NCBI GenBank assembly: GCA_016235085.1
Contig: JACRMA010000043.1
Span: 7,327-71,326 of the forward strand
Origin: Candidatus Zixiibacteriota bacterium
GTDB lineage: Bacteria; Zixibacteria; MSB-5A5; WJJR01
DNA: 64,000 nt
Reading direction: 5' to 3'
Shown here: piece after piece, positions 12,001 through 45,767 of the stretch
Position numbering within the stretch: the first letter of the stretch is position 1
Layout: each line of letters starts with the position of its first letter
The notes under the pieces: generated by a model
What the model was told of the DNA's origin: nothing
Database searches by the model: none
The model's input: the letters and a program-made list of their open reading frames with translations, nothing else
Made by a program: the position numbers and the translations under genes

Positions 12001-12325
12001 ACCGGCACCCGATTCGTGTTGGTCACGGTGATGGCGACAACTTCGGAATCCGCCAGCGTTCCATCGCTCGCGATAAACGTGACGTTGATGACTCCGGCCT
12101 GCGTGTAGTCCGGATTGAAGACAAACGAACCGGCTCCATTGAGCGAATCGACGAAGGTCGAATTGAGCGGCGCACCAACGACGGTGAATGTCGGTGTCGT
12201 GCCATCGGCGTCGGTGGCATGCGTGCGGAAGGTGAGATTGGCGCCCTCCGCCACGGCCTGGGCGCGAATAGAGTCGAGAACCGGCGCCTGTCCGCCTGGG
12301 AATTGGATCGCAAACCAGGCAACGT
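1..12325. repeat. Tandem array of near-identical 279-bp coding repeats (~44 units), the body of the giant adhesin gene.
   Basis: Recurring blocks such as ttgaacacgaa.gaaccggc.ccgtt.agcgaatcgacgaa recur with 279-bp periodicity (for example plus-frame ORF starts at 10227 and 10506). Protein-level repeat identity is greater than 80%. Confidence 0.85.
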
Positions 12326-13460: not shown

Positions 13461-13503
13461 AGTTTGAATTGGCTCTGCGGGTTTCCCCGCAGAGCGTATT
13501 TCG

Positions 13504-16140: not shown

Positions 16141-16866
16141 TGAGAAGCCCCCTTTCGGGACGGTTAATATGCCTGCAAGGTCTTGCATACTTTCGACTTC
16201 GTCATGGTCAGCCATTCTCTGCACCTGCATGTGGCTTCACCACATTCCGCACTGCATCCGTCGTCGCTGGCCGCCGCGCATCGCTTGGCGGTCAACAGGT
16301 TAGCCCCACTCTTCGGGGCCTCCGGGGAGGGGGGCATCCGGGCAATGACAGGCGGCGTTCAAACCGTTCGCAGTAAGTGCATTGCGGATTCCTGCTTCGC
16401 CAAGGCTTCGCAGGATTTAGGTGGAATGGCGTTCCGCGCCGGAGCCGATCACCGTCCTTTCGCGATGTGGGGGTGGGGTGAAAGTGGACAAAGCGGACGA
16501 GGTGGACGAAGTGGACGAGGACCAAGAGGCAAGTGTCGTCACACGCGTGGGCTCGCCGGCGACCGGGTGGACTGTGTCCACTGGGCGGGTGGGCTCAAGC
16601 TTGTGGCGAACAATGGTGGTCACTGGGCATCCTCTCTATCAACAAAAAACCCCGTCGCGAACAGATCATGCGCCCTAAACTGGGCGCAGCGGGCGGGGAT
16701 CAGCAGTACTTCAAGCAGCATAACTTGTTTCGACCTGCATTTGCTCCTGCCCGCCTGATTGACGGCAGGGGCGGCTTCATCGTTCTCAGTTGTGCAGTCT
16801 TTGTTCCTCCTCTCGTCCGCCTGGCACGCCGTTCCGTCGGCGCCTCGCATTTCTTGGTAAGCAGAT

Positions 16867-16894
16867 CCCGTCCCGTCCAAAAGGACGGGACGGG
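16867..16894 (-). terminator. Perfect 12-bp stem / 4-nt loop hairpin (CCCGTCCCGTCC-AAAA-GGACGGGACGGG) 20 nt downstream of the stop of the 16914..19862 gene; candidate transcription terminator without a U-tract.
   Basis: The inverted repeat is read directly from the sequence and sits immediately 3' of a stop codon. The lack of a U-rich tail lowers confidence. Confidence 0.45.
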
Positions 16895-16913
16895 ATTGCG
16901 TGAACTACAGACT

Positions 16914-19862: not shown

Positions 19863-21511
19863 CTGTTTTGCTCCTTTAAAATTCCTCTCAGTTGACGTTT
19901 TCGAACTCCCCAAAGAGAGACACATTCTGTCGGGGAATCCACGCGATAGTCATTCCCCCTGATTTCGCGCTGAGCATTTGCTTTGTGCCTCAATACCGAT
20001 TTTCTCTAAACCTCACCTCCGTAGATGTCTAAATCGTTCACGGTTTCTGTTGGTTGAAGCGAGCGTTTAAAGACTCTTCGTTCGCAACACCTCCTTTCAC
20101 CGAAAATTGGTTGGGTTGATGGTTAACAACATCAATCATGGTTTTCAATCCCAGCCGGCGGCACAAGAGCGTGGGGCACCGGCGATTTTTTCAACAGAGG
20201 CTTGGGGCCCAAACGCCCGAAACACAGACACGAAAAGCGGCCGCATCAAGACACGGAGTCTCGACACCCAACCGCGTGCAGGACAAGAAACTCGAAGAAA
20301 TGTAAGGCGTGTGGACCATTCACGACCTCCCAATTCGCGTTTCCACTGTCACTTGCGTTCACCGAAGATCCTCTCAGGAGACATTCCCACACCGGGCCAC
20401 GCTCGTGAGCCGAATCGTCCGACTGCTGTCTGCCTTTCCATTTCCCGCTGCGAGCGGGTTGGTGAACTTGTCCGCGAACTTCGCGGTGTGACCTTGGTGG
20501 TTACTGCGCTTGCCGCCTCAGACCATGACTTCAATCCGTCCGACCAGCGCCGCCACCCGAGACTCTTGTAGAACTACCTGTGTTTCAGCTTTGTACCATA
20601 TCGCATGTGGTAACATCACTTGGCGAACTGAATATAGACCCCACCCCCCGATCTGTCAATACCCTAAATGGTTTTTTTTCTCTCATTTGTTGCATCAGCA
20701 GACCGGGCAAATCTGCTTGGGATGACAAGGAGTTAACGTGCGTGACAGTTTGGTGGAAGCGGGACCACCGCGCCTGCGGCGGGGGGCGGGCTGACGGGGA
20801 GGTCCCAACCGCAATACGATCCGCAGACGGGCGACCTCTGATCTACATAAGGTGAGGTCTGATTTTGACAGCCAGTTGAAGTTCTCAGAATTTGAATGGG
20901 GCGGGTTGCGGAGACAAGGTCCAGCTCACGCAATGGCGTGTTGTCAGACAGTGCCTCGTGAATTCGAGGCCGCATCAAGTTGTCCCACCTCCCACTTTCA
21001 CAGTCCGGGAAGAGGCCTGAATCTCGTCTGCGATTTCATCCTGTGCGCTCTCAAGTCGTTGATCCACAACACAATCTACTTCTCCATCCCGTGCGCACAT
21101 CACCTCCTCAGCAGGTGGGACTTTAGGAGCGGCGGGACCTCATGAGACCATCGGAACGGATGATGATCTGGAGAAGAAAGCGGACGATTATGGCGTGGCG
21201 GTAGAAGCGGAAGGGTGGTCTCAAGGGTGATCGTCCTTAAACCGGCGACCGCGCCTTAACCGACGGCATCCATTGGCTTCTTGACGAGGGATGCCCATGG
21301 GAAGCACCGGACGCAGTATGAGCAATTGTCCCCCCGGGGGATCGTATCTCGAAATGTAGTGATTCGGCAATACTACAAGGCCCCGCCACCCATGTTGGTC
21401 CCCGGCTCTTCGGTGGATTCTGGGATCCAACATGACGCGACGAGGGCGGAGAGTCAATCCCCCCACCCTCATCAACGCCAGGAACGAAAACTCGCTGCAA
21501 TCCCTAAGTGC

Positions 21512-22255
21512 TCAGCACGGAGGCTGTCCGTTGTTGAAGACGTACTCAATCAAGTAGATCAGGTCGAAGATGTCCGCCACATCATCGCAGTTGACATCGG
21601 CGAGCGTGGGCGGGCATGACGGACCATTATTGAAGAGATAGTCCTGAAGCGCGGTTATGTCAAATATGTCTGTGACCTGGTCTTGGTTTAAGTCGCCTCG
21701 GGAGGTCGGGCGCACCGTTACGCTCCCGCTGGTCCAGTCCACAGGTGAAATGAATGAGAAGGTGGGCGTCATGAACCAACTGCCAACGCCACCGGCCGTG
21801 AAGGAAACAGTACGATCTTGAAGGGTATCCGCCCAAGCGTCTGGACAGACCGTGTGGACAAGCAATTTGATCAAATTGCCGGATGTGTAGGCGGGAATGG
21901 CGGTTCCGTAACCGGTGATTTGTATGGCCGCGGGGCTGTAATATTGCAACCCCACAGACCAGCTGGCAGTCAGAGTTCCCGCACTGCTCCAGATCGCGAT
22001 TGAATCCCAGTAAGCCAGGTCGGGCCGACTCATGGTAACCAGGAGTTGAAAATATTCAATTGGCTCGTCCATGTTCTGAATGAAGACGGTAATGGTATCC
22101 TGCACATTCCAACCAGAGGTGGTATCACCTAGATCGACGTAAACCTTAGGGGTTTGCGCCCACAGAGATTTTGCACTCCCAGGGAAAGACGCGACGACAA
22201 TGCTGGTCATAAGCAGCAGAACACCACTCCAAACCTTCCGCCGATAGTTCTCCAT
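21512..22255 (-). CDS. Small secreted dockerin-domain protein (signal peptide plus ~150-aa unknown domain plus C-terminal double dockerin-like repeat).
   Basis: N-terminus MENYRRKVWSGVLLLMTSIVVASFPGSAKSLWAQ is a signal peptide. C-terminus DLNQDQVTDIFDITALQDYLFNNGPSCPP...DVNCDDVADIFDLIYLIEYVFNNGQPPC. AGGAGG lies 8 nt upstream of the ATG. The gene is lower-GC than its surroundings. Confidence 0.6.
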   Translation of the reverse strand: MENYRRKVWSGVLLLMTSIVVASFPGSAKSLWAQTPKVYVDLGDTTSGWNVQDTITVFIQNMDEPIEYFQLLVTMSRPDLAYWDSIAIWSSAGTLTASWSVGLQYYSPAAIQITGYGTAIPAYTSGNLIKLLVHTVCPDAWADTLQDRTVSFTAGGVGSWFMTPTFSFISPVDWTSGSVTVRPTSRGDLNQDQVTDIFDITALQDYLFNNGPSCPPTLADVNCDDVADIFDLIYLIEYVFNNGQPPC

Positions 22256-28996: not shown

Positions 28997-29029
28997 GGTA
29001 GTGGCTAATCTCCCGGTATTGTGGCGGTG

Positions 29030-29155
29030 TGCAAGGGGCTAAAAGCCTCTTGTCCGCGAGTGTGTCGTTTGCGCCGTTCGCAAGGGGCTAAAAGCCCCTT
29101 GTCCGCAATGGGTGCGCCATTCGTCGAGGACAACGGGCTTTCAGCCCCTTGCCGC
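29030..29155. repeat. Three tandem family B GC-hairpin elements (CAAGGGGCTAAAAGCCCCTTGTCCGC-type) downstream of rpmE; related copies at 32236–32262 and hairpins at 29263–29280 and 37228–37246.
   Basis: The same 8-bp stem / 5-nt loop hairpin plus the TGTCCGCAAT tail recurs. Confidence 0.7.
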
Positions 29156-29285
29156 TCGCGGCGCAATCTGCGTTGTCCTTCCGTTCCGGCAACCAACCCG
29201 CAACTCCTCAACTCCCGACAATACAAACGCGACGGGATGCTTGCGCACCCGTCGCGTGAACGCCCCTTGCGGGGCTGATGAATCG

Positions 29286-29534
29286 CTATGACTTCTGGCC
29301 GGCCTTCTCAGGAGCGGCGGCAGCCGGAGTCGCCTGAGTCATGCCGTATTTCTTCAGGAACTTCTCAACTCGTCCCGCCGTGTCGATGAGCTTCTGCTTG
29401 CCGGTAAAGAACGGGTGGCAGGCGGAGCAGATTTCGACGTGGAGGTCCTTCACGGTCGACCGGGTCGGAATCTCATTCCCGCAGGCGCAGTGGATCTTGG
29501 TGTCATAGTACTTCGGGTGGATTTCTGCCTTCAT
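29286..29534 (-). CDS. rpmE: 50S ribosomal protein L31.
   Basis: [27 protein letters not shown]...[13 protein letters not shown] with Cys motifs diagnostic of L31. GGAG lies upstream. The ORF track extends 5' to 29765, but the conserved start is MKAEIHP. Confidence 0.85.
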
Positions 29535-29656
29535 TGTCATCACTCCAATCAGTCTCCCTGCCTTTTGGGAGACGGATATATTACGCAGAATTTCCGGAAA
29601 TGACAACTGAAAATGTAGCCGAGACGTTAGCCGGTCGTTTCCCAGGCACTTGATGG

Positions 29657-31612
29657 TCAGGTGCCTGGGAGTTGCTTCTTCACCACATTCTCGGCCCCAC
29701 CGGCCACTACAAGTTCCTGTGCGACAGTGCTTAAAGGCGAAAACGGGAAATCGCGTCCGTCGCACTTGATCATCGACTTCTGGTAGTCCACATCGAGTGT
29801 CGGGCCGACGATGGTCGGGGCCTTGTCGTCACGGAACGTCTCGCGCAGGAAATCGACGAGAGTCGGGCACTCAAATACCACAAAGCCATTGTTGAAGGCG
29901 TTGCGCTTGTAAGTCTCGTTGAACGATGCGGCAATGACACACTGAATGCCGCGATAGTCGAGGGCAGTCGCGGCCTGTTCGCGCGAGGAACCCGTGCCAA
30001 AGTTGCGACCGGCGACAATGATGTCGCCCTTGACGGCGATAGCCTGGAAATTCGGGTCGTAGTTGAGCATGCAGGCGGCGGCCATCTCGTCACGTGTGAG
30101 ATTGTCTTTATAGGTAAAGGCGCCACCGTAGATGCCATCGGTATTGAGGTTGTCGACCGGCAGCCAGAGAGCACGGCCGTGAATGGCGGCCGGGAAACCG
30201 GCGACAATCTCGACCGGTTTCGCGGGACGCGGCGGGGCCGTATGCACGACCGCAGTGGATTGGCCGGTGATGTTCTCGAACCGTGTGGGCGATGCAATGT
30301 AACCGGCGATAGCCGAGGCGGCCACGACCGCGGGGCTGCCCAGATAGACCTGCGCATCGCGATGACCCATGCGTCCCTTGAAATTGCGGTTGGTGGCGCT
30401 TATGCCGACCTCGCCGGCGTCGAGCGTCCCCTCCCCCAACCCGATGCACGGTCCACAGCCGGATGGCAGCATGATGGCGCCGGCAGCCGAGAGCGACTGC
30501 CAATGGCCGGCCTCTTCCGCCTGCTTCTGGATATTCGCCGACGCGGCGGCGACATAGAATTTTACACCCTCGGCGACCTTCTTCCCTTTGACGATCTGCG
30601 CGGCTTCGGCCAGGTCCTCGAAGCGGGCGTTCACACAACTCAGCAGGTAGGCTTTGTGGATCTGAACCTTCTTCGCTTCGATCTCGGGAAGGGCAACCAT
30701 GGTCTTGACGTGATTCGGTCCGGAGACATGGGGGATCACGGTAGACAAATCCAGCGTCAGATCGATGGCATAGTGAGCGTCGGAATCCGCCATCGTCCGA
30801 TGCGTGTACCACTCATCAACTTTGGCCCGATTGTAGCGCGGTGTTCCACGTGACACAAGGAAATCTGCCCGCCCGTAAAGATAGTCGCGCAAGACAGTGT
30901 CGAACGGGAAGATGCCGGCGAGCGCGCCCCACTCGGTCGTCATGTTGGCAATGCTCATGCGCTGGTCCATCGACATGCCGGCGATTCCATCGCCGTTGAA
31001 CTCGATGGCCATGTTGAGTACTTCATCATGATTGAATAGACCGCAGAGTGCGATGATCACATCCTTGCCGACCACGCCGGGGCGCAATTCTCCGGACAGC
31101 GTCACACGCGCGACCGGCGGCACTTGCCACCAGGTCTGCCCGGTCGCCCAGATTGCGGCGGCGTCGGTGCGCACAACCGGAGTGCCGAGAGCGGCGGCGG
31201 CGCCATAGAGATTGGAATGAGAGTCGCTGCCGACTACCATGCTGCCCGGCGTCACGTAACCATACTCGACCATCACCTGATGGCTGATCCCGGTTCCGGC
31301 CGGGTAGAAATCGATGCCGTGCTGTTTGGCGAAGGCCTCGATCTTGGCGTACTTCGCCAGATTATCGGGTGTGGTGTTTTGGATGTCGTGGTCGATCGCA
31401 AACACCGGTTGGCGGGGGTCGGCAACCCTGGCAGCGCCAATCGACTTGAACTTGCTCATCACCGCGCTGGTGTTGTCGTGGGTCATGATGTGTTTGGGGC
31501 GGATACGAATAAAGTCTCCGGATACGACCTTCTCCCCTGGCTTCAGTCCCACAGCGTGGGCGGTCGCGAGCTTTTCGACTACTGTTTGACCCATGTCAAT
31601 ACCCCGTTCCAC
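29657..31612 (-). CDS. Aconitase-family hydro-lyase, fused large plus small subunit (LeuC/LeuD-type; 3-isopropylmalate/homoaconitate/aconitate hydratase).
   Basis: [15 protein letters not shown]...[11 protein letters not shown]...large-subunit region and a C-terminal LeuD-like swivel domain ([15 protein letters not shown]). Possible alternative start at ATG 31594. Confidence 0.8.
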
Positions 31613-31619
31613 AATGAAT

Positions 31620-31645
31620 GGTGGGCAGAGCCCACCCTACATTCG
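31620..31645. repeat. Family C hairpin element GGTGGGCAGAGCCCACCCTAC; an identical copy at 33271–33291. Both lie just 5' of gene starts (aconitase gene; ccl).
   Basis: Identical 21-mer at two loci, each immediately upstream of a start codon on the minus strand. Confidence 0.7.
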
Positions 31646-31646
31646 A

Positions 31647-32180
31647 TCAACCGCCAACGAGTTCGAAGTCGATGAAATCAGCGTGGTGGAGGACGATTCC
31701 CTCCGGTGTACGCTTGCCGCCGGCGGCTTCTTTGGAGTGCATCGCCACCACGTGAATCACGGATTCGGGAAGCCCCTGCTCCCAACAGAGTCCTACACCG
31801 CTGAACGGATGGCGGAGCAGACGGCCGTGCTCACTCTTGACGAATTGGCCGTCTTTCTTGGTAAACTCCAGCACTTTGCCGACGTCGGCGAGCATTGCGC
31901 CCGCAACCAGGATATCGCGGTCGACCACGTTGCGGTCACCGTAGGCCTTCTGCAACACATCCCAGCAGGCGATGCACATTTTGCACACGGTGCGCACGTG
32001 TTCCACGAAGGTCACGTTGACATTGGAAACCAGCAGCGTAAACGGCATGGTGCGCAGGTCGTCGTAGGATAGTGTGCTGCGCTTCATTGCGGCGGTCCAG
32101 GTCGCGGCGGTCTTGCTGCGCAGGGTCGCGTCCTTGATTTCGTTGATCTCGGGAAAGATGGAGAGGATTTCGTCGGGCAT
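31647..32180 (-). CDS. HD-domain-like protein; the canonical HD dyad appears degenerate (LADVGK instead of LHDIGK).
   Basis: Pattern H..R...(x)...ADVGK...H...H resembles HD/HDOD phosphohydrolase folds. The match is weak. Confidence 0.35.
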   Translation of the reverse strand: MPDEILSIFPEINEIKDATLRSKTAATWTAAMKRSTLSYDDLRTMPFTLLVSNVNVTFVEHVRTVCKMCIACWDVLQKAYGDRNVVDRDILVAGAMLADVGKVLEFTKKDGQFVKSEHGRLLRHPFSGVGLCWEQGLPESVIHVVAMHSKEAAGGKRTPEGIVLHHADFIDFELVGG

Positions 32181-32365
32181 GGGATTTTCCTCGCTATGGT
32201 CTACAATTGTCGCGAAGGATCACTCGGTTTGGGGTGACGTCAAGGGGCTGAAAGCCCCTTGTCCGCAATCGTGGCTATCAGCGCGATATGGGTACCTCAA
32301 TCGCCGCTCTGCTATTTACGGACTTTGTGGTCAATACTCTGCACCGTTGCCATTGAGCATGCCGC

Positions 32366-32432
32366 GAGGGCGAGGCCCCTGCCGAGCCTCTTTCCGCGCG
32401 GAAACATGGCTCGGCAGGAGCCTCGCCCTCCC
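32366..32432. repeat. Palindromic REP/MITE-like element, family A (GAGGGCGAGGCCCCTGCCGAGCC...GGCTCGGCAGGAGCCTCGCCCTCCC); copy 1 of 4.
   Basis: A near-perfect long inverted repeat read directly; related copies lie at 37795–37880, 43031–43102 and 45903–45938. Confidence 0.8.
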
Positions 32433-32468
32433 AGCCCGCGCCACCTGTCGGATTGTGGACACTCAGTA

Positions 32469-33248
32469 TCATTTAAGGTGGCGGATGGCTGGACCGTCGT
32501 AGGTCGTATCAGTCGGGTGAATCTGGCGCATTGGTTTTTGACGGGTTCGCTCTTCATGGGCATGCGCCACCAAACCGGGCAGACGCGCAATCATGAAGAA
32601 CGCATTCGCCAGGGCGGGCGGCACGTTCAGGTCGAGCAATACCGCTGCAATCGCACCGTCGACATTGAGGGGCAGCGGCTTTCCGGTCACCTTGGCAATG
32701 GTCGTCTCGAGCGCCCGCGCCATCGCCAGTCCGTCTTTCGCCTTGCCAAGGTCGTCGACCAGTTGCAGCAAGCGCGTCGTTCGGGGGTCTTTGGTGTGCA
32801 GGCGATGGCCAAACCCTGGCAAGCGCGCTCCGCGTGCCTTGTAGCTATCAAATGTGGCGAGGGCGGCATCTTCGAACGACAGGCCCTTGCTCTTTGCCGC
32901 AGCCACCGCTTCACTGATTGCCTTCATCGAATCTTCGATGGCGCCGCCGTGGAATTTGGAAATCGAGAGAATGCCGGCGGCAACCGCCGCACCGAGCGGC
33001 GCACCGGTCGAGGCGACGGTGACGGTTGAGAGGACAGATGGCGGCGAGGTGCCATGGTCCACCGATGAGACAAAGATCGCGTTGAGGATGGTGGCGGTCG
33101 CGGGATCAGGAAGTTCGCCAAGGAGGGCCAGATGGATGGCTTCGGCGAAGCTGATCTTGCCCATCAACTCTTCGACCGGGTATCCGCGGAGGCGGATGAC
33201 ATTGGGGCCGATCTCGGTAATTGCGGATGACCAGTTCATGTCGCCCAT
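32469..33248 (-). CDS. ccl: Short citrate-synthase-like protein, candidate citryl-CoA lyase.
   Basis: 259 aa carrying the citrate-synthase family motif GFGHRLHTKDPR and resembling the C-terminal citrate-synthase-like domain of ATP-citrate lyase. It lies immediately downstream of a succinyl-CoA-synthetase-like pair. AGGAG lies 6 nt upstream. Confidence 0.65.
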   Translation of the reverse strand: MGDMNWSSAITEIGPNVIRLRGYPVEELMGKISFAEAIHLALLGELPDPATATILNAIFVSSVDHGTSPPSVLSTVTVASTGAPLGAAVAAGILSISKFHGGAIEDSMKAISEAVAAAKSKGLSFEDAALATFDSYKARGARLPGFGHRLHTKDPRTTRLLQLVDDLGKAKDGLAMARALETTIAKVTGKPLPLNVDGAIAAVLLDLNVPPALANAFFMIARLPGLVAHAHEERTRQKPMRQIHPTDTTYDGPAIRHLK

Positions 33249-33286
33249 GATTGCTCCTGACGTACAAAAGGTGGGCAGAGCCCACC

Positions 33287-34213
33287 CTACTCGATTATGG
33301 GAATCTTCGCGGTCTCCATCGGCCGGATGATCGTCTTCACCGCGTCCGGGATATCGCCGAAGTTGTCGACGACCGTAGCACCGACTTCACGCAGACGCTT
33401 GACCTTGCCGTCGTGCGTGCCCCGGTCGCCTTCAATGATGGCACCGGCGTGGGAGAAGCGCGTTCCCGACTGCGCCCCTTTGCCGCCGATATACGCGACC
33501 AGTGGTTTGGTGAATTTGCCTGATGCGATGAGGTCGGCAACGCGTTCTTCCTGTGAGGTGCCGATTTCGCCAAACATCACGACGCAATCGGTATCGGGGT
33601 CCGATTCGAACAACTCCATGACCGCCGGATGATCGGTACCGATGATCCCATCGCCGCCGACATGGATGATGGTTGATAGCCCGATTCCGGCGCGCGAGAG
33701 GTAATACGCAATTGATGATGTGATACCACCGGAACGAGAGGTCACGCCCACGCGCCCGGGAAGGAACCAATCCTTTGCCGAAGAGGCCGATCCGCCGATC
33801 ATGCCGAATACCGCCCGGCCGGGTGACAGGAGTCCCAGCGTATTGGGACCGATGAAACGGGCACCGGCATCCTTGGCGGCAGCGGCGATCTCTAGAACAT
33901 CATAAATTGGGACACGGTCGGGCACGATTACGAGGAGTTTGATCCCCGCTGCGATGGCTTCGAGAGCCGCGTTCTTCACCAGCGGCGCGGGGACGAAGAT
34001 CGTGGAGACATCGATGGAACCCATCTTCTCGACAGCTTCCATGACGGTATCGAAGACCGGCACACCCAGGACATCCTGTCCCCCTTTGGCGGGTGTGCAG
34101 CCGGCGACAACCCGGGTGCCGTAGCGCTGCATGAGCTGGGTGCGCGCCATCCCCTCGCGGCCGGTGATGCCCTGCACAATGACTGTCTTGGTTTCGTCGA
34201 CGAGGATGCTCAT
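33287..34213 (-). CDS. ccsB: Succinyl-CoA synthetase alpha-like CoA-binding subunit (candidate citryl-CoA synthetase small subunit).
   Basis: VIVQGITGREG...TPAKGG...phosphohistidine loop RFSHAGAIIEG. Confidence 0.75.
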   Translation of the reverse strand: MSILVDETKTVIVQGITGREGMARTQLMQRYGTRVVAGCTPAKGGQDVLGVPVFDTVMEAVEKMGSIDVSTIFVPAPLVKNAALEAIAAGIKLLVIVPDRVPIYDVLEIAAAAKDAGARFIGPNTLGLLSPGRAVFGMIGGSASSAKDWFLPGRVGVTSRSGGITSSIAYYLSRAGIGLSTIIHVGGDGIIGTDHPAVMELFESDPDTDCVVMFGEIGTSQEERVADLIASGKFTKPLVAYIGGKGAQSGTRFSHAGAIIEGDRGTHDGKVKRLREVGATVVDNFGDIPDAVKTIIRPMETAKIPIIE

Positions 34214-34277
34214 ATGTTACCGTTGCGTGCATTCGGAGCCGGGCGCCCACATAGGGGCGCCCCTACGGAATCTGCGA

Positions 34278-35840
34278 CTAAGCCCCCATTATCTTTGCGC
34301 GGTATTCTTCCAGTCCGGGGATCGGGAGGATTACCCGGCCACCGGAATTGCCGCCGATACGGCACTCGACTTCGCACGCCAGACATTCGATGCACTTACC
34401 GGCTTTGGCGTCCTCTCGTGAGATGTTCAGGACAACAACGCCATCCTGATTCTTGAGGATTTGCGGCACACAGGTCTGAACGCAGCTCTTGGTCTGGCAC
34501 TCGCGGCACAGTGCGTGATCGAGCACGACTTTCCCGGTTGGTGTTTCAAACGAGTATGGATCTTTGGCGGTAAAGTCCGGAGTGACCGGCAGGGCCATCT
34601 GGCGCGGGGCGGCTTTGTCCGGTTGCGCCTCGAGCAGTTTCTGCATGCGCTGGGCGCAGAAATCAGCTGTGTCGTCCTTCTTGTAACCTTCCACCGGAGC
34701 CGGGAGATTCTTCGTGTATTCGGTGAGAATCTGGATCGCCTTGTCCTCACCATTGCCGCCAAGCCGGATCACGGCGGGAATCGAGAGATTCTCCTCCCAA
34801 AACGCCTTGACCAGGCCGCGTGCCGAATGGAACTGCTCCTGCGACGCAACACCCGAACCGGAACCGAAGTAGCCATCGATGTTGGGCTGGGAGAGAATAA
34901 TCTTGGCGGCACGATAGACCTTGGATGCCGGCGGATTTCCGGAGGTGTCGGTGAAATTGGCGATCGTGTACCCGCGTTTCACCAGTGCATCCATCGACAT
35001 CATCGAGCCGCCTCCGCCCGCACCATGGAAGCCGATGAATCCTTCGCCCTTCTTGTAGCCGCGCGCCATTTCAATGAAGTAGAAGGTGCCCCGGTAATCG
35101 TCCTTCTCGACAGACCAGGCGATCTTGTCCAGGGCGGTTGGCGGCCGGCCGAATTCACGGGCGATTTCGATTTTGAGCTCAGGATGGCGGAAGACCGCGC
35201 TGTCATCGACAGTGATCCGGCAGTCGCAGGCGACGAGCTTGCCATCGCCACGGAGCACAAGCGGATTGATCTCCGCCGAGCGGGCTTCCCATTGGCGGGC
35301 AACGCGATAGAGTGTCAGCAATGCCTTCGTCAACTCGTTTTGCAACGAGCCGGTCACACCGGTCTTGCGCACCGCCTCGCGCGCTTCGTACTCGCGCAGG
35401 CCGAAGCGCACATCAACCGGAGTCTTGGAAACATTCTTCGGGTATTTGCGCGCCAACTCCTCTATTCCGGAGCCACCGATGGAAGAGAAGATCACGACGG
35501 GGGTCTTGTTGGCATCATCGACGACGATGCCGGCGTAGAATTCACGGTTGATGTCGACCTTTTCTTCGATCAGGACTTCGGTGACATCGAAGCCGCCGAT
35601 CTTCAACGAAAGCATTCGTGCCGCCGCGGCGGTGACGTCACCAGCGTTGTCGGCGATGGCAATGGCGCCCTGAGCCGCTCGGGATGTGGTCCAGGCCTGC
35701 GCTTTGACCACGGCGGGAAGTCCACTGATTGCCAGGGCCGCCGGGACCTCACCTTGCGAGCGGACGACCTGCCCTTTGGGGACAGCAAATCCTGCTTCCC
35801 TTAGGAGCTGTTTGCCGTGATATTCGTGTAGACGCGCCAT
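34278..35840 (-). CDS. ccsA: Succinyl-CoA synthetase beta-like ATP-grasp subunit (candidate citryl-CoA synthetase large subunit) with a C-terminal 2x[4Fe-4S] ferredoxin domain.
   Basis: N-terminus MARLHEYHGKQLLREAGFAVPKG (SucC-like ATP-grasp). The C-terminal ~100 aa carry CRECQTKSCVQTC...CIECLACEVEC, two CxxCxxCxxxC clusters. Start at ATG 35840 with AAGGTGA upstream. Confidence 0.75.
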   Translation of the reverse strand: MARLHEYHGKQLLREAGFAVPKGQVVRSQGEVPAALAISGLPAVVKAQAWTTSRAAQGAIAIADNAGDVTAAAARMLSLKIGGFDVTEVLIEEKVDINREFYAGIVVDDANKTPVVIFSSIGGSGIEELARKYPKNVSKTPVDVRFGLREYEAREAVRKTGVTGSLQNELTKALLTLYRVARQWEARSAEINPLVLRGDGKLVACDCRITVDDSAVFRHPELKIEIAREFGRPPTALDKIAWSVEKDDYRGTFYFIEMARGYKKGEGFIGFHGAGGGGSMMSMDALVKRGYTIANFTDTSGNPPASKVYRAAKIILSQPNIDGYFGSGSGVASQEQFHSARGLVKAFWEENLSIPAVIRLGGNGEDKAIQILTEYTKNLPAPVEGYKKDDTADFCAQRMQKLLEAQPDKAAPRQMALPVTPDFTAKDPYSFETPTGKVVLDHALCRECQTKSCVQTCVPQILKNQDGVVVLNISREDAKAGKCIECLACEVECRIGGNSGGRVILPIPGLEEYRAKIMGA

Positions 35841-36099
35841 AATCACCTTCGACCGGTTGGTTGCCCGGCCGGGCGAGCCAATATCACAGTGGCACAGTGC
35901 GTTGTCAACCATGGTCCGACCGACCCGTTGTAATCGAACCACATTCTGACATCGAAGGTCAACGAGTCTGTGACTGTAGCGCACCGGCCGTGTGTGATTG
36001 ACCTACATTTTGTCCGAACCCAGCCGATTTCACTTGTCCAAGCCGGCAAACTCCGGCAATACTTGCGCCCGACTCAACCGATAGGAAGGAGAACCTACA

Positions 36100-37218
36100 A
36101 TGGCCAAGTATAAGATTGCGTGGATGCCTGGAGACGGGATCGGCAAGGATGTTCTGGATGCGGCACGGGTTGTGCTCGATTCGCTCAAACTTGACGCGGA
36201 CTACATTAACGCGGATATCGGCTGGGAGTTCTGGTGCGAGGAGGGCAATCCGCTCCCCGAGCGTACGCTGAAGATTCTGCGGGAAACCAGGTGTGCCCTC
36301 TTTGGCGCGATTACATCGAAACCCAAGGAGGAGGCCGAGGCCGAACTGGCAGCGTCGCTCAAAGGAAAAGGATTGAAATACTCCTCCCCGATTGTGGGTT
36401 TGCGGCAGGCGTTCAACCTGCACACGAATCTTCGTCCCTGCAAGGCGTACCCCGGCAATCCGCTCAACTATCGCGACGACATCGACCTGGTTGTCTTCCG
36501 GGAGAACACCGAGGATTTGTACGCCGGCGTGGAATTTCATCCGGTGGCCGACGATCTGCGCGCCAAGCTGATCGAGCACAACAAAAGCATGAAGAAGTTC
36601 GACAAGGTCAAGGCCGAAGACCTTGCGATCTCTTGCCGGATCATCACCAGACCGGCGAGCCGCACGATTGTGACCTCGGCATTTGAGTACGCCAAGAAGT
36701 ACAGGTATCCGTCAGTGACACTGGTGGAGAAGCCCAACGTACTGCGCGAGACCTCGGGCCTGATCACCCGTACCGCCCGGGAAGTGGCGAAGGGGTACCC
36801 CGGCATCCAATTCTATGAAGCCAACATTGACGCGATGTGCATGTGGTTGATCAAGAACCCCAAAGATTACGGTGTGATGGTAACCTCGAACATGTTCGGC
36901 GACATCATTTCCGATCTGTGCGCACAGTTGGTGGGGGGGCTTGGGTTTGCGTCATCGGGGAATATCGGCGACAACTACGCTGTGTTCGAACCGACCCACG
37001 GTTCGGCGCCGAAGTACGCCGGCATGTACAAGGTCAATCCGATGGCCACGATTCTCACGGTCAAGTTGATGCTCGATTGGCTCGGCGAGACAGTCATGTC
37101 ATCACGTTTGGAGAAGGCAATTGCCAAGGTCATCAAGGACGGCAAGGTCCGGACGTACGACATGGGCGGCAGCAACACGACGCTCGAGGTGGCCGAGGCG
37201 GTGGCGAAGGCGCTGTAG
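36100..37218 (+). CDS. Isocitrate/isopropylmalate dehydrogenase family (beta-decarboxylating dehydrogenase).
   Basis: MAKYKIAWMPGDGIGKDVL N-terminal motif and family-wide similarity. AAGGAG SD upstream. Subfamily (ICDH, LeuB or homoisocitrate DH) not resolved. Confidence 0.8.
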   Translation: MAKYKIAWMPGDGIGKDVLDAARVVLDSLKLDADYINADIGWEFWCEEGNPLPERTLKILRETRCALFGAITSKPKEEAEAELAASLKGKGLKYSSPIVGLRQAFNLHTNLRPCKAYPGNPLNYRDDIDLVVFRENTEDLYAGVEFHPVADDLRAKLIEHNKSMKKFDKVKAEDLAISCRIITRPASRTIVTSAFEYAKKYRYPSVTLVEKPNVLRETSGLITRTAREVAKGYPGIQFYEANIDAMCMWLIKNPKDYGVMVTSNMFGDIISDLCAQLVGGLGFASSGNIGDNYAVFEPTHGSAPKYAGMYKVNPMATILTVKLMLDWLGETVMSSRLEKAIAKVIKDGKVRTYDMGGSNTTLEVAEAVAKAL

Positions 37219-37260
37219 GTAGACCTGATACTCAAGCCCCTTCGGGGCTGATATTGAGTA

Positions 37261-37851
37261 TTAAAGTGAATCGGTGAGTTTCTTGGTGTCGGTGACTGTG
37301 CCGGTGACTTGGCGGCGCAGTTTGATATGAGTGAGTTCCGGGTCCGATTCGAAGCCGTAGCCGGCCATGACATCTTTGTCGCGGGTGATGACGACATAAC
37401 CGTCGGTGTGGATCACCCGGTTTGAATCGTTCCAGGCCAAATGATCAGACTTGAGTTTCGTGCCCTTGTCGGTGGTGATCCCGACATTCCCGAAGACTTC
37501 CAGGCCGCGGCGGCGTTCACGGAGAAGCGCAGAGTCGGCGCGCAACACCGATGAATGTTTCCCCTCGGCATCAAAGAAGTCCACCAGCAGGCCATGTGAC
37601 CACGCGGAATCGCGATCGGCATAGCTGACGATGCGCTCGCTCTTGATCTTGGTCGTTACGACGGCGCCGGTTAGAAAGACAGTCGTTGCGTTGGTGGCTT
37701 CAGAGGAAGGGAATGACTGTGGCGGCGGTTTGACCGTTGTCTCCTGCGTGCCGCAGGAGGAGATGACGAAAAGGAGAAAGAGTAACGTCAGGCGCGAGGG
37801 AGGGCGATCCGCCGCGGCGGACTGCCGAGCCCCTTTTGCGCGTGGATGCAT
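37261..37851 (-). CDS. lptC: LptC-like LPS export protein (lipoprotein-type signal ...LLFVISSCG).
   Basis: ~190-aa LptC/DUF1239-like beta-rich sequence following kdsD–kdsC, the canonical gene order. The only in-frame ATG (37851) lies inside a palindromic repeat element. Confidence 0.55.
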   Translation of the reverse strand: MHPRAKGARQSAAADRPPSRLTLLFLLFVISSCGTQETTVKPPPQSFPSSEATNATTVFLTGAVVTTKIKSERIVSYADRDSAWSHGLLVDFFDAEGKHSSVLRADSALLRERRRGLEVFGNVGITTDKGTKLKSDHLAWNDSNRVIHTDGYVVITRDKDVMAGYGFESDPELTHIKLRRQVTGTVTDTKKLTDSL

Positions 37852-44825: not shown

Positions 44826-45767
44826 ATGGGAAGAACGGGAAGTATGGGAAGCATGAAATCGCGCGGCGCGAGGAAGACACTCGCGCCAGCGCGGCGTCGG
44901 ATGTTGGTCGAGCGGATGGCGGGTGTGCCATTCCCGAATCTGCTGGGGATGAAGCTGGTCAAGCTGGTGCCGGGGGAGGCCAGGATCAGCATGGCCGGAG
45001 TGCCGAAGCTGCACCAGTACCAGAAGATCGTGCACGGCGGGGCGATCTCGTCACTGGCCGACACTGCCGCGACCTTCGCCGCACTGGCGAGCGTTCCTGA
45101 CGGGTTCGATGTCATCACGATTGAATTCAAACTCAACTTTCTAGCGCCGTTTGCGAGCGGCAAAGCGATTGCCACTGGACGGATTGTACATCTGGGACGG
45201 CGAACCTGTGTGTCCGAGGTCAGTATCAAGAAACCCGGCTCCGGCGAGACAATCGCGGTTTGTTTGTTTACGATGTTGTGCTTTCAAGTGGTTCCCTTCA
45301 TCAGCGGCAGCCAGAAGCATGGACGGCAGCATGACATCACATTGTATATCGAAGGGGATGGGCAGATCGCGGTGATTGCGAAGCCGTTCTACCCGCCCAG
45401 CCTGTATCGTGCCCCGTCGGGCGGGCTGGAACCCGGTGAAATACTGGAGACGGGTGCGGCAAGAGAGGCACACGAGGAGACAGGGCTCGATGTCAAACTC
45501 GCCAGTTATCTGCTTGTGGCAACGGTAGTCTTTACGTGTCCGGACAAACCTGCAATCGAGTGGCACACGCATGTGTTCTCGGCGACGACCTTTGATCGTA
45601 CACTTGCTCCCACCGATCACCACGAAATTCGCGAAGCCCGCTGGGCCGATCCGTCTGAATTCGCCACCTTCGGTGCCATCATGCGCGAATCGCAACGCGG
45701 CGGGCTGTTGTATCGTGCCGCGCTGCACGATCAAGTTGCGAAGATCCATCCGTTGTTCCAGCATTGA
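44826..45767 (+). CDS. Fusion protein: PaaI/4HBT hotdog thioesterase domain plus NUDIX hydrolase domain.
   Basis: N-terminal half carries IVHGGAISSLADTAA (hotdog/PaaI motif). C-terminal half carries the Nudix box GGLEPGEILETGAAREAHEETGL. Confidence 0.55.
   Translation: MGRTGSMGSMKSRGARKTLAPARRRMLVERMAGVPFPNLLGMKLVKLVPGEARISMAGVPKLHQYQKIVHGGAISSLADTAATFAALASVPDGFDVITIEFKLNFLAPFASGKAIATGRIVHLGRRTCVSEVSIKKPGSGETIAVCLFTMLCFQVVPFISGSQKHGRQHDITLYIEGDGQIAVIAKPFYPPSLYRAPSGGLEPGEILETGAAREAHEETGLDVKLASYLLVATVVFTCPDKPAIEWHTHVFSATTFDRTLAPTDHHEIREARWADPSEFATFGAIMRESQRGGLLYRAALHDQVAKIHPLFQH

What the first reader, a model, noticed from the sequence alone, without database searches (positions are those of the whole stretch)
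32469..35840. Citryl-CoA lyase plus succinyl-CoA-synthetase-like pair: signature of the two-step citrate-cleavage system (reductive TCA cycle)
A 259-aa citrate-synthase-like protein (GFGHRLHTKDPR motif, too short for a citrate synthase) sits directly downstream of an SCS-beta-like ATP-grasp subunit and an SCS-alpha-like CoA-binding subunit. This three-gene arrangement matches the citryl-CoA synthetase (CcsA/CcsB) plus citryl-CoA lyase (Ccl) system described in Hydrogenobacter, the ancestral split form of ATP-citrate lyase. An aconitase-family gene and an IDH-family gene flank it. This hints at autotrophic CO2 fixation via the reductive TCA cycle, or a reversible TCA cycle, in this lineage.
Basis: partly seen in the sequence, partly recalled or inferred. 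Interest (0 to 1): 0.7.

Follow-up and report, generated by a model that had tools for sequence, protein, structure and literature searches.

The report
Ferredoxin-tagged split citrate-lyase-like operon
The three genes are real and resemble the two-step citrate-cleaving system, but they belong to a separate, uncharacterised, iron-sulfur-carrying enzyme family, widespread in non-autotrophic bacteria and always encoded beside lysine-pathway-type (homoaconitase and homoisocitrate dehydrogenase) genes, so they give no support for CO2 fixation and may act on homocitrate rather than citrate.

Summary
On the minus strand lie an ATP-grasp SCS-beta-like gene (34278-35840), an SCS-alpha-like gene (33287-34213) and a 259-aa citryl-CoA-lyase-family gene (32469-33248). 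The host is a Zixibacteria MAG.

- The lyase is a true CCL-family member: about 45% identical to H. thermophilus CCL, with the catalytic His/His/Asp invariant.
- The ligase falls in neither the SCS group nor the CcsA/AclB group. It lacks the loop motifs shared by CcsA and AclB-type sequences.
- More distant relatives encode this module as a separate small gene and pair with other lyase types.
- At least 472 species genomes encode a relative of the ligase. In the 80 loci examined, mostly from lineages known as heterotrophs, the order ligase-lyase-HD protein-aconitase family-IDH family recurs.
- The flanking "aconitase" passes NCBI's homoaconitase model.
- The "IDH" carries the fungal homoisocitrate-dehydrogenase loop SSPIV, not the S-x-N of IDHs.
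- Most operons add a second dehydratase (PrpD-like or a second LeuCD pair).
- The window holds no OGOR, POR or fumarate reductase.

My best reading is a reversible, ATP-coupled acyl-CoA ligase/lyase serving a 2-oxoglutarate/2-oxoadipate (homocitrate) module. Citrate chemistry in a heterotroph is a close rival. Autotrophic rTCA is unlikely.

The parts
34278..35840 (-). ATP-grasp large (beta-like) subunit of an ADP-forming acyl-CoA ligase, 520 aa, with a fused C-terminal ferredoxin-like domain
   Evidence: Pfam ATP-grasp_2 E 1e-44, with a weak ACLY Citrate_bind hit (25.7 bits) and no Ligase_CoA hit. Below the SucC cutoffs (232 vs 370). 100% identical to P0001 from a Zixibacteria MAG. Family motifs GFHGAGGGGSMMSMD, DTSGNPPASKVYRAAKIIL and GSGSGVASQEQF are invariant. 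It belongs to a third clade in the NJ tree.
34281..34550 (-). C-terminal 2x[4Fe-4S] ferredoxin-like (FixX-like pattern) domain of the large subunit, residues ~431-520
   Evidence: CxxCxxxxCxxxC(V)P ... CxxCxxCxxxC. All eight Cys (C445, 448, 453, 457, 483, 486, 489, 493) are invariant in 19 homologues from several phyla. The Pfam Fer4_9 match is only E 1.4e-3, so the domain goes unannotated. The AF2 model has pLDDT 80.5. Foldseek hits are weak but are ferredoxin domains. Stand-alone homologues are encoded between the beta and alpha genes in related operons.
33287..34213 (-). CoA-binding small (alpha-like) subunit with the phosphohistidine loop, 308 aa
   Evidence: Pfam CoA_binding, Succ_CoA_lig and Ligase_CoA. 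Below the SucD cutoffs (288 vs 336). PDB scores: SCS-alpha 269 bits, CcsB 163 bits. FSHAGAI is invariant in 51 orthologues. Fused to the lyase in 7 related loci.
32469..33248 (-). Citryl-CoA-lyase-family (short citrate-synthase-fold) acyl-CoA lyase, 259 aa
   Evidence: NCBIfam NF004869 233 bits, above the cutoff of 212. H. thermophilus CCL 6hxp E 3.7e-47. DHG, HGGAIE, G.GHR..DPRT, NVDGAIAA, NAFF...R.PG and PMR.I.P are invariant or nearly so in 44 orthologues.
31647..32180 (-). Conserved HD-superfamily protein of unknown role, 177 aa, an operon member
   Evidence: Pfam HD E 6e-5. Present directly after the lyase in 45 of 80 loci. The His of the HD dyad is Ala here and in many orthologues (LLADVGK) but His in others. 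The AF2 model has pLDDT 91.7. The best fold match is the YhaM HD domain, E 7.5e-6.
29657..31612 (-). Fused homoaconitase-type (Lys4-like) aconitase-family hydro-lyase, 651 aa
   Evidence: NCBIfam TIGR00139 'homoaconitase' equivalog 743 bits, cutoff 530; the aconitate hydratase models all fall below their cutoffs. Best PDB hits are the M. jannaschii homoaconitase large and small subunits. Other phyla have split LeuC/LeuD-like genes of hacA_fam at the same operon position.
36100..37218 (+). Homoisocitrate-dehydrogenase-type beta-decarboxylating dehydrogenase, 372 aa, divergently transcribed here and downstream in the operon elsewhere
   Evidence: The best NCBIfam hit is AksF2 homoisocitrate dehydrogenase (338 bits), but no cutoff is passed. 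The substrate loop KYSSPIVGLRQ matches S. pombe HICDH 3ty3 GYSSPIVALRK. IDHs have S-x-N. SPIV is found in all orthologues where the loop could be read.
35880..35908 (-). Promoter-like site upstream of the 35840 start codon
   Evidence: TTGACA-17-GATATT with an extended TG, 10 of 12 matches. This is a consensus match only.
33270..33286 (-). Perfect 17-nt palindrome GGTGGGCTCTGCCCACC in the alpha/lyase spacer (first copy)
   Evidence: Two identical copies in the window against 0.03 expected. It follows the stop codon directly. It is also present in the 96%-identical locus L001.
31620..31636 (-). Second copy of the same palindrome, in the HD/homoaconitase spacer

Best explanation
This is a split, ATP-citrate-lyase-like machine of a previously undescribed kind.

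Proposed mechanism:
- An ADP-forming acyl-CoA ligase interconverts a citrate-family hydroxy-tricarboxylate plus ATP plus CoA with its CoA thioester. The ligase has an ATP-grasp large subunit carrying a 2x[4Fe-4S] ferredoxin-like domain, and a CoA-binding small subunit with a phosphohistidine.
- A citrate-synthase-fold lyase of the CCL family then interconverts that thioester with acetyl-CoA plus a 2-oxo-dicarboxylate.
- By analogy with ATP-citrate lyase, the pair is near equilibrium. It can therefore either spend ATP to cleave or conserve ATP while condensing.

Proposed role. The pair serves the homoaconitase-type and homoisocitrate-dehydrogenase-type enzymes encoded with it. I judge the tricarboxylate to be homocitrate. 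The operon would then be a 2-oxoglutarate <-> 2-oxoadipate C2 module, the first half of the alpha-aminoadipate route or its reverse, in a heterotroph. It would not be citrate cleavage for CO2 fixation.

What is shown:
- gene content;
- family memberships;
- conserved synteny across phyla;
- the alpha-lyase fusion in some genomes;
- the invariant Cys and catalytic residues;
- the HICDH-type loop;
- the absence of the CcsA/AclB-type loop motifs.

What is inferred:
- the identity of the acid;
- the direction of flux;
- Fe-S cluster binding;
- the role of the ferredoxin module, which may be structural or a redox/oxygen sensor of the ligase.

One further inference bears on the extra dehydratases. 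A Si-type citrate-synthase-fold condensation would yield (S)-homocitrate. That isomer would need a PrpD-like or second LeuCD dehydratase before the homoaconitase-type hydratase.
For: Coupling of ligase and lyase:
- They are adjacent in 67 of 80 loci.
- The alpha subunit and lyase are fused in 7 loci.

Lyase:
- It belongs to the CCL family, and the CS catalytic His/His/Asp and Arg residues are invariant.

Ligase is distinct from both SCS and CcsA/AclB:
- NCBIfam cutoffs are not met.
- The motifs GSGSGVASQEQF and RLGGN replace GG(T/S)xAN(N/F)T and RR(G/N)GP.
- The NJ split has 188/200 bootstrap support.
- Relatives in the same clade sit with HpcH/CitE-like or HMGL-like lyases plus PrpD/LeuCD/PrpF genes.

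Ferredoxin module:
- Eight Cys are invariant.
- Stand-alone homologues lie between the beta and alpha genes in related operons.

Evidence for the homo-series:
- The window's aconitase-family protein passes the homoaconitase equivalog TIGR00139 (743 bits, cutoff 530).
- The split versions elsewhere pass hacA_fam.
- The dehydrogenase scores best against methanogen HICDH.
- It carries SSPIV, as S. pombe HICDH does, and SPIV is found in all orthologues where the loop could be read.
- IDHs have S-x-N.
- Of the 27 loci that carry an Acn-family or Idh-family gene (among the 34 with at least 7.5 kb of downstream sequence), 21 also carry a second dehydratase.

Heterotrophic setting:
- The taxa are mainly known as heterotrophs.
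- Thermoflexus is described as a chemoorganotroph (PMC8129789).
- Zixibacteria RBG-1 was judged non-autotrophic (PMC3903129).
- The window contains no OGOR, POR or FRD.
Against: - The lyase is ~45% identical to a biochemically proven citryl-CoA lyase. Every residue known to bind oxaloacetate or citrate in citrate synthases is conserved. No citrate-synthase-fold enzyme is known to use 2-oxoglutarate.
- The dehydrogenase passes no NCBIfam cutoff. Overall it is as similar to NAD-IDHs (224 bits) as to Thermus HICDH (220 bits).
- Some HICDH-type enzymes use isocitrate well. This applies to the Thermus and Pyrococcus enzymes and rests on my own knowledge.
- Caldithrix abyssi, from a lineage with this operon, is reported to have a conventional homocitrate synthase in its LysW cluster (PMC5317091). 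A second route to homocitrate would then be redundant.
- The window's own operon has no PrpD-like or second LeuCD gene.
- 7 of 34 well-covered loci have the trio without Acn-family or Idh-family genes.
- The NJ tree is approximate, and the reference groups were assigned by motif only.
Confidence: 0.4

Rival explanations
1. The enzymology is as the first reader said (citrate + ATP + CoA <-> citryl-CoA <-> acetyl-CoA + oxaloacetate), but it operates in heterotrophs. The homoaconitase-like and HICDH-like neighbours act as aconitase and isocitrate dehydrogenase. The operon would then be a reversible citrate <-> 2-oxoglutarate branch. It could run as ATP-conserving citrate synthesis, as with ATP-citrate lyase in Desulfobacter. 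It could also run as reductive carboxylation of amino-acid-derived 2-oxoglutarate to make acetyl-CoA and oxaloacetate.
For: - CCL-family membership, with all oxaloacetate- and citrate-binding residues of citrate synthases conserved.
- GGGGS and GNPPA.K.Y..KIILS motifs shared with H. thermophilus CcsA.
- A weak Pfam ACLY Citrate_bind hit instead of Ligase_CoA.
- Very high cross-phylum conservation of the operon, which suggests a central-metabolic role.
- Neighbouring 2-oxoacid dehydrogenase E1/E3/LipB or OFOR genes in some loci.
- ACL-type reactions are near equilibrium (Table 1 of PMC13147460).
Against: - The Asn of the IDH S-x-N motif is replaced by Ile in every orthologue where the loop could be read.
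- The aconitase-family protein passes the homoaconitase model and not the aconitase models.
- A true aconitase would not need the second dehydratase seen in most operons.
- The ligase lacks the loop motifs shared by CcsA and AclB-type sequences.
Confidence: 0.33
2. One reading: a bona fide CcsAB/Ccl two-step citrate cleavage that marks an autotrophic reductive TCA cycle in this Zixibacteria lineage.
For: - The three-gene architecture parallels Hydrogenobacter CCS/CCL.
- ccl in a Zixibacteria MAG has been counted as an rTCA marker in a metagenome survey (PMC11279179).
- Zixibacteria RBG-1 has 2-oxoglutarate:ferredoxin oxidoreductase (PMC3903129).
Against: - The ligase is not in the CcsA/AclB clade.
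- The neighbours are not canonical aconitase and IDH.
- The operon is common in lineages known mainly as chemoorganotrophs, such as Anaerolineae, Thermoflexus, Calditrichia and Marinimicrobia (PMC8129789).
- There is no OGOR, POR or FRD in 64 kb.
- RBG-1 was judged non-autotrophic (PMC3903129).
Confidence: 0.08
3. A catabolic activation-and-cleavage system for some other hydroxy-polycarboxylate, such as methylcitrate-like or aconitate-derived acids. The dehydratases and the dehydrogenase would act upstream of the ligase and lyase.
For: The nearest ligase relatives sit in clearly catabolic-looking operons with HpcH/CitE-like or HMGL-like lyases, PrpD, LeuCD and PrpF. A very divergent PrpD-like gene is present in 13 loci.
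Against: The core operon is embedded among housekeeping genes and is highly conserved across phyla. The dehydrogenase loop retains the Ser and the arginines typical of tricarboxylate substrates. A tertiary alcohol such as 2-methylisocitrate could not be oxidised by such a dehydrogenase.
Confidence: 0.12
4. An ordinary succinyl-CoA synthetase paralogue that happens to lie next to a degenerate citrate synthase, with no functional link between them.
For: The highest PDB scores of both ligase subunits are to true SCS subunits. Public annotations call them SCS beta or ATP-grasp proteins.
Against: - Both subunits fall well below the SucC and SucD model cutoffs.
- The acid-binding loop NIFGGIxRCD of SCS is replaced.
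- Adjacency to the lyase is conserved, and the two are fused in 7 loci.
- The lyase keeps all catalytic residues.
Confidence: 0.03

Closest known systems
Citryl-CoA synthetase (CcsA/CcsB) plus citryl-CoA lyase (Ccl) of Hydrogenobacter thermophilus (PDB 6hxq, 6hxp)
   Same: Both have three separate genes. Both lyases are short citrate-synthase-fold proteins; this one is ~45% identical to 6hxp, with all catalytic residues. The large subunit shares the GGGGS and GNPPA.K.Y..KIILS.P motifs with CcsA.
   Different: - The large subunit lacks CcsA's GGTANNT and RRNGP loops and lies in another clade.
- It carries a fused ferredoxin-like domain.
- The alpha subunit is closer to SCS-alpha than to CcsB.
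- The operon partners are HD, homoaconitase-type and HICDH-type genes.
- The hosts belong mostly to lineages known as heterotrophs.
ATP-citrate lyase AclA/AclB (Chlorobium 6hxj; human ACLY)
   Same: It has the same overall logic of ATP-grasp, CoA-binding/phosphohistidine and citrate-synthase-like lyase modules. In 7 related loci the alpha subunit and lyase are fused as in AclA.
   Different: The genes are unfused in this window. Sequence similarity is low (89 bits to AclB, 131 bits to AclA, 61 bits to the AclA lyase module). There is no GGSxANFT/RRGGP motif. It has an extra Fe-S domain.
Succinyl-CoA synthetase SucC/SucD
   Same: The fold is the same, and SCS subunits give the best overall PDB scores. 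The RL(G/E)GN motif is shared.
   Different: It falls below the NCBIfam SucC and SucD cutoffs. The acid-binding loop differs, a Fe-S domain is present, and the ligase is always partnered with a lyase.
Alpha-aminoadipate pathway enzymes homoaconitase (fungal Lys4; methanogen HacAB) and homoisocitrate dehydrogenase (fungal Lys12, S. pombe 3ty3; Thermus 1x0l)
   Same: The window's aconitase-family protein passes the Lys4-type equivalog model. The dehydrogenase has the SSPIV substrate loop of S. pombe HICDH. Many operons need two dehydratases, as homocitrate isomerisation does in fungi and Thermus (the latter is from my own knowledge).
   Different: No LeuA-family homocitrate synthase lies in the operon; a CCS/CCL-like pair stands in its place. 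The dehydrogenase has two insertions and passes no HICDH cutoff.
FixX-type ferredoxin-like proteins (2x[4Fe-4S])
   Same: The Cys spacing CxxCxxxxCxxxCP ... CxxCxxCxxxC and the size of ~90 aa are the same. The comparison with FixX is from memory. The spacing itself was read.
   Different: Here the module is fused to, or encoded between, the subunits of an ADP-forming CoA ligase. Pfam Fer4 models match only at E ~1e-3. No flavoprotein partner is conserved.

Membership tests
CCS/CCL two-step citrate cleavage (Hydrogenobacter type) | Short (~260 aa) citrate-synthase-fold lyase with the catalytic His, His and Asp, closer to CCL than to citrate synthases | tested here: met
   NF004869 233 bits, above the cutoff of 212. 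6hxp E 3.7e-47 against citrate synthases at E 1e-16 or weaker. The catalytic residues are invariant.
CCS/CCL two-step citrate cleavage (Hydrogenobacter type) | Large and small ligase subunits orthologous to CcsA/CcsB, that is, grouping with CcsA/AclB rather than elsewhere | tested here: not met
   PDB bit scores favour SCS over Ccs for both subunits. In the NJ tree the CcsA/AclB-motif group has 198/200 support, and the split separating it plus SCS-type sequences from the window family has 188/200 support. The tree is approximate, and groups were assigned by motif.
CCS/CCL two-step citrate cleavage (Hydrogenobacter type) | Loop motifs of the large subunit shared by CcsA and AclB-type sequences (GG(S/T)xAN(F/N)T; RR(G/N)GP) | tested here: not met
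   The window family has GSGSGVASQEQF and RLGGN instead, invariant in 19 homologues. That these motifs contact citrate in human ACLY is from my own knowledge.
CCS/CCL two-step citrate cleavage (Hydrogenobacter type) | Citrate-, ATP- and CoA-dependent formation of citryl-CoA and its cleavage to acetyl-CoA plus oxaloacetate | not testable with these tools
   This needs enzyme assays.
Reductive TCA cycle (autotrophy) | Co-occurrence with 2-oxoglutarate:ferredoxin oxidoreductase, pyruvate:ferredoxin oxidoreductase and fumarate reductase in an autotroph | tested here: inconclusive
The operon is common in lineages known as heterotrophs (PMC8129789; PMC3903129).
Succinyl-CoA synthetase SucCD | Score above the NCBIfam equivalog cutoffs for SucC and SucD | tested here: not met
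   Beta subunit 232.6 bits against a cutoff of 370. Alpha subunit 287.9 bits against a cutoff of 336.
ATP-citrate lyase AclAB | Alpha-type subunit fused to the citrate-synthase-like lyase module | tested here: not met
   The genes are separate in the window. They are fused in 7 related loci, for example L035:9534-11303.
Homoaconitase (TIGR00139 equivalog) | Score above the curated cutoff | tested here: met
   743 bits against a cutoff of 529.9 for window 29657-31612.
Homoisocitrate dehydrogenase | Substrate-recognition loop of HICDH type rather than the S-x-N of IDH or the E..LL of IPMDH | tested here: met
   KYSSPIVGLRQ compared with S. pombe HICDH GYSSPIVALRK. IDHs have SSINV or RSLNV. SPIV is found in all orthologues where the loop could be read.
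Homoisocitrate dehydrogenase | Score above a curated HICDH model cutoff | tested here: not met
   The best hit is AksF2_Meth at 338 bits against a cutoff of 540.
2x[4Fe-4S] ferredoxin domain | Two four-Cys cluster-binding motifs, conserved, in a ferredoxin-like fold | tested here: met
   Eight Cys are invariant. The model has pLDDT 80.5. The nearest folds are ferredoxin domains but are not statistically significant. Pfam Fer4 matches fall below their cutoffs. Cluster binding itself was not tested.

The most novel reading that the evidence does not exclude
The ligase/lyase pair is an ATP-coupled homocitryl-CoA synthetase/lyase. It would be a citrate-synthase-fold, iron-sulfur-bearing substitute for homocitrate synthase, or its catabolic reverse. 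It would link acetyl-CoA + 2-oxoglutarate to homocitrate with conservation or expenditure of one ATP. A PrpD-like or second LeuCD dehydratase would be needed to process the (S)-homocitrate that a Si-type condensation would produce. This would be a new entry to, or exit from, the alpha-aminoadipate/2-oxoadipate pathway. The ligase family occurs in hundreds of mostly uncultured bacterial species. More generally, it would reveal a three-component (beta, ferredoxin, alpha) class of ADP-forming CoA ligases.
Probability: 0.35. Interest if true: 0.8.

Novelty: new variant of a known kind. Interest (0 to 1): 0.6.

Why it matters
The presence of ccl/ccs-like genes is routinely scored as a marker of the reductive TCA cycle in metagenome surveys. 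This family would then be miscounted as autotrophy in Zixibacteria, Anaerolineae, Marinimicrobia, Calditrichia, Acidobacteriota and others.

If the family acts on citrate, it is a new, Fe-S-bearing lineage of citrate-cleaving or ATP-conserving citrate-forming enzyme in anaerobic heterotrophs.

If it acts on homocitrate, it is a new reaction and a new way into or out of the 2-oxoadipate/lysine pathway.

In either case, the dedicated ferredoxin-like third component of an ADP-forming CoA ligase is unreported in the literature I could search. Its role may be redox or oxygen sensing, structural, or electron transfer, and it is directly testable.

Tried and rejected
- Other rTCA genes in the window. 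I scanned the large ORFs of the window with Pfam and found only housekeeping and surface-protein genes.
- Literature. I found no description of a ferredoxin-fused CCS, and no paper in the library contains 'homocitryl-CoA'. The Desulfitobacterium 'citryl-CoA lyase beta' hit appears to be a CitE-type lyase, judging by its 'beta subunit' label, and so irrelevant; I did not check this.
- A conserved redox partner for the ferredoxin domain. HdrA-like, FixC-like and OFOR genes occur next to some loci but not consistently, so I rejected them as core components.
- Foldseek of the ferredoxin-domain model. It gave only non-significant ferredoxin-like hits.
- The HD protein model. It matches generic HD phosphohydrolases, with YhaM best, and gives no functional clue.
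- The small-subunit specificity loop of the homoaconitase-type protein. It could not be aligned informatively to the YLRT (homoaconitase) or YLVY (IPM isomerase) loops of the M. jannaschii enzymes.
- Rfam found nothing in 29000-37500.
- The first bootstrap run had a numerical error and was repeated. Within-family clades are poorly resolved; only the deep split is used.
- Whole-genome presence or absence of gltA, acn, icd, homocitrate synthase and LysW genes.

Full report
**Observation.** The minus strand of the window carries, in order of transcription:
- an ATP-grasp SCS-beta-like gene (35840->34278, 520 aa);
- an SCS-alpha-like gene (34213->33287, 308 aa);
- a 259-aa citrate-synthase-like gene (33248->32469) with GFGHRLHTKDPR;
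- an HD-domain gene (32180->31647);
- a 651-aa aconitase-family gene (31612->29657).

An IDH-family gene (36100-37218) is transcribed divergently. The real start of the first gene is the ATG at 35840. All homologues begin MARLHEY there, and a TTGACA-17-GATATT site lies just upstream. The large subunit is 100% identical to a protein from a candidate division Zixibacteria MAG.

**The lyase.** It matches only the C-terminal half of the citrate synthase profile. It passes NCBI's citryl-CoA lyase subfamily model NF004869 (233 bits, cutoff 212). It is far closer to the solved H. thermophilus CCL (E 3.7e-47, about 45% identity) than to any citrate synthase or ACL module (E 1e-16 or weaker). In 44 orthologues the motifs DHG, HGGAIE, G.GHR..DPRT, NVDGAIAA, NAFF...R.PG and PMR are invariant or nearly so. 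These contain the citrate synthase catalytic His/His/Asp and the substrate arginines. It is a genuine CCL-family enzyme.

**The ligase.**
- Both subunits have the SCS architecture, and the phosphohistidine loop SHAGA is invariant.
- Both score well below the curated SucC and SucD cutoffs (232 vs 370; 288 vs 336).
- Against solved structures they score higher with true SCS than with H. thermophilus CCS or Chlorobium ACL. The beta subunit gets 197, 120 and 89 bits, and the alpha subunit gets 269, 163 and 131 bits.
- In the C-terminal, acid-binding domain the family shares GGGGS and ANFTD.(S/G)GNPPA.K.Y..KIILS.P with CcsA.
- It has GSGSGVASQEQF where CcsA and AclB-type sequences have GG(T/S)xAN(N/F)T and SCS has NIFGGIxRCD.
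- It has RLGGN, as in SCS, where CcsA and AclB-type sequences have RR(G/N)GP.

An exhaustive search of 1.84 billion cluster representatives showed two things. The whole family collapses into one 50%-identity cluster. It is surrounded by relatives at 38-52% identity, some with and some without the extra domain. An NJ tree of 50 sequences puts the window family outside the clade that unites SCS-type and CcsA/AclB-type sequences. The split has 188/200 bootstrap support, and the CcsA/AclB-motif group has 198/200. The tree is approximate and the groups were labelled by motif. Membership of the CcsA/AclB clade is not met either.

**A missed feature: an iron-sulfur module.** Residues ~431-520 of the large subunit form a ferredoxin-like domain with the pattern CxxCxxxxCxxxC(V)P ... 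CxxCxxCxxxC. All eight Cys are invariant in homologues from several phyla. Pfam Fer4 models match only at E ~1e-3, which explains why it is unannotated. An AlphaFold model is reasonably confident (pLDDT 80.5). Its nearest structural neighbours are ferredoxin domains, though not significantly.

In two more distant relatives the same module is a separate 92-108-aa gene between the beta and alpha genes. Those ligases are partnered with an HpcH/CitE-like lyase or an HMGL-like lyase, plus PrpD, LeuCD and PrpF genes. The Fe-S module is thus an ancestral third component of this ligase clade, independent of the lyase type. I found no paper describing it (and others).

**Conserved operon and distribution.** In the 80 loci fetched, the order is large subunit > small subunit > lyase > HD protein > aconitase-family > IDH-family. 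It recurs in Zixibacteria, 'Ignavibacteria', Calditrichia, Marinimicrobia, KSB1, Acidobacteriota, Aminicenantes, Gemmatimonadota, Hydrothermota, Thermoflexus and many Anaerolineae. The gene counts are 80, 76, 67, 45, 39 and 33, and many loci are truncated.

In 7 loci the small subunit and lyase are fused into an AclA-like protein. This is strong evidence that ligase and lyase work together. These lineages are known mainly as chemoorganotrophs, for example Thermoflexus (PMC8129789). Zixibacteria RBG-1 was judged non-autotrophic (PMC3903129). ccl in a Zixibacteria MAG has nevertheless been counted as an rTCA marker (PMC11279179). The 64-kb window has no OGOR, POR or fumarate reductase.

**The neighbours are of the 'homo' series.**
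- The 651-aa protein passes NCBI's equivalog model for Lys4-type homoaconitase (743 bits, cutoff 530) and none of the aconitase models.
- Its best solved relatives are the methanogen homoaconitase subunits.
- In other phyla the same position holds split LeuC/LeuD-like genes that pass hacA_fam.
- The dehydrogenase scores best against methanogen homoisocitrate dehydrogenase, though below cutoff.
- Its substrate loop is KYSSPIVGLRQ. The solved S. pombe homoisocitrate dehydrogenase has GYSSPIVALRK.
- IDHs have S-x-N: SSINVAMR, RSLNVALR, RSVNVTLR.
- SPIV is found in all orthologues where the loop could be read.

Among 34 loci with at least 7.5 kb of downstream sequence, 25 carry an aconitase-family gene and 21 the dehydrogenase. 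Of these 34 loci, 27 carry at least one of the two, and 21 of those 27 carry a second dehydratase: either a divergent PrpD-like gene or a second LeuCD pair. A true aconitase needs no helper. From my own knowledge, homocitrate isomerisation in fungi and Thermus needs two enzymes, as does 2-methylcitrate isomerisation (PrpD plus aconitase).

**Interpretation.** The mechanism I consider established by homology has two steps. An ADP-forming ligase works through a phosphohistidine to interconvert an acid, ATP and CoA with an acyl-CoA. A citrate-synthase-fold lyase interconverts that acyl-CoA with acetyl-CoA and a 2-oxo-dicarboxylate. ACL-type reactions are close to equilibrium (about -8 kJ/mol in the cleavage direction, Table 1 of PMC13147460), so either direction is possible.

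The identity of the acid is open.
- The lyase argues for citrate.
- The ligase loop, the homoaconitase-type and HICDH-type partners and the second dehydratases argue for homocitrate.
- A stereochemical argument fits homocitrate. This is inference. Citrate-synthase-fold enzymes are Si-type, so with 2-oxoglutarate they would give (S)-homocitrate. Its acetyl-derived arm is the one aconitase-type enzymes do not dehydrate. That is exactly the problem PrpD solves for methylcitrate. cis-Homoaconitate is achiral and could then enter the normal homoaconitase/HICDH steps to 2-oxoadipate.

I therefore rank the readings as follows:
| Reading | Probability |
|---|---|
| Homocitrate, 2-oxoglutarate <-> 2-oxoadipate module | ~0.40 |
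| Citrate chemistry in a heterotroph | ~0.33 |
| Another hydroxy-polycarboxylate | ~0.12 |
| Autotrophic rTCA | ~0.08 |
| Unrelated SCS plus degenerate citrate synthase | ~0.03 |

Points against the homocitrate reading:
- the lyase is close to a proven CCL;
- the dehydrogenase is as similar to NAD-IDHs as to Thermus HICDH;
- Caldithrix abyssi reportedly has a conventional homocitrate synthase (PMC5317091);
- the window's own operon lacks a second dehydratase;
- 7 of 34 well-covered loci have the trio alone.

**Role of the Fe-S module.** This is unknown. None of the reactions proposed for the ligase or lyase is a redox reaction. No flavoprotein or oxidoreductase partner is conserved. A structural or redox/oxygen-sensing role is the most economical guess.

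**Verdict.** The enzymological analogy to CCS/CCL is reasonable but membership is only partial: the lyase qualifies and the ligase does not. The autotrophy inference is unsupported. What is present is a widespread, uncharacterised variant of the split ATP-citrate-lyase theme, with a dedicated ferredoxin-like component and a conserved link to homoaconitase- and homoisocitrate-dehydrogenase-type enzymes.

Noticed in passing
L087:3239-3517 and L088:9272-9598: Stand-alone 92- and 108-aa ORFs between the beta-like and alpha-like ligase genes are homologues of the fused ferredoxin-like domain. In L087 the first Cys of the second motif is Asp. Their operons use HpcH/CitE-like or HMGL-like lyases with PrpD, LeuCD and PrpF genes. 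This suggests a broader class of three-component CoA ligases in catabolic operons.
   Followed up: partly
L035:9534-11303 (also L034, L038, L053, L069, L072 and others): The small ligase subunit and the CCL-like lyase are fused into one 585-589-aa AclA-like protein. These loci lack the aconitase-family and IDH-family genes. They often have a ~700-aa ADP-ribosylglycohydrolase-family gene directly upstream of the large subunit.
   Followed up: partly
window 31647-32180 (-): A conserved 177-aa HD-superfamily protein sits inside the operon. The His of the HD dyad is Ala in the window and in many orthologues (LLADVGK) but His in others. The AlphaFold model is confident, and its best fold match is the HD domain of YhaM. 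Its role is unknown.
   Followed up: partly
window 33270-33286 and 31620-31636 (-): A perfect 17-nt palindrome, GGTGGGCTCTGCCCACC (7-bp stem, 3-nt loop), occurs twice, each just after a stop codon inside the operon. The flanking GTAG is also identical. The expected number of copies is 0.03. It is seen elsewhere only in the 96%-identical locus L001. It may be an intercistronic RNA hairpin or a small repeat element.
   Followed up: partly
L081:5800-9971 (Marinimicrobia); also L010, L012, L015, L022: Dihydrolipoyl dehydrogenase, lipoyl transferase LipB and a fused E1 alpha/beta 2-oxoacid dehydrogenase component lie directly upstream of the large ligase subunit. In L086, OFOR subunits lie downstream. 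This hints that the 2-oxoacid product is oxidatively decarboxylated next.
   Followed up: no
L082:13801-18553: One operon carries two complete LeuC/LeuD-like pairs flanking the dehydrogenase gene. The small subunits across the loci fall into at least three loop types (NTDVIFPGKYTY, IDTDQIFHNAxLHITD, DTDMIYHGSYLPLTD).
   Followed up: partly
L085:21147-21542: A saccharopine-dehydrogenase-family gene lies about 4 kb downstream of the operon in one locus. This could relate to lysine metabolism or to polyamine synthesis. It may be coincidence.
   Followed up: no
window 625-19925 (-): A run of very large surface-protein genes (1736, 1910, 715, 908 and 1003 aa). Pfam domains found in those scanned (the 1910-aa ORF was not scanned) include cadherin-like, bacterial Ig, He_PIG and cohesin domains. 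The 908- and 1003-aa proteins also have type IX secretion C-terminal sorting domains. A dockerin-domain protein lies at 21512-22255.
   Followed up: no
window 44826-45767 (+): A 313-aa fusion of a 4HBT thioesterase domain and a NUDIX hydrolase domain.
   Followed up: no
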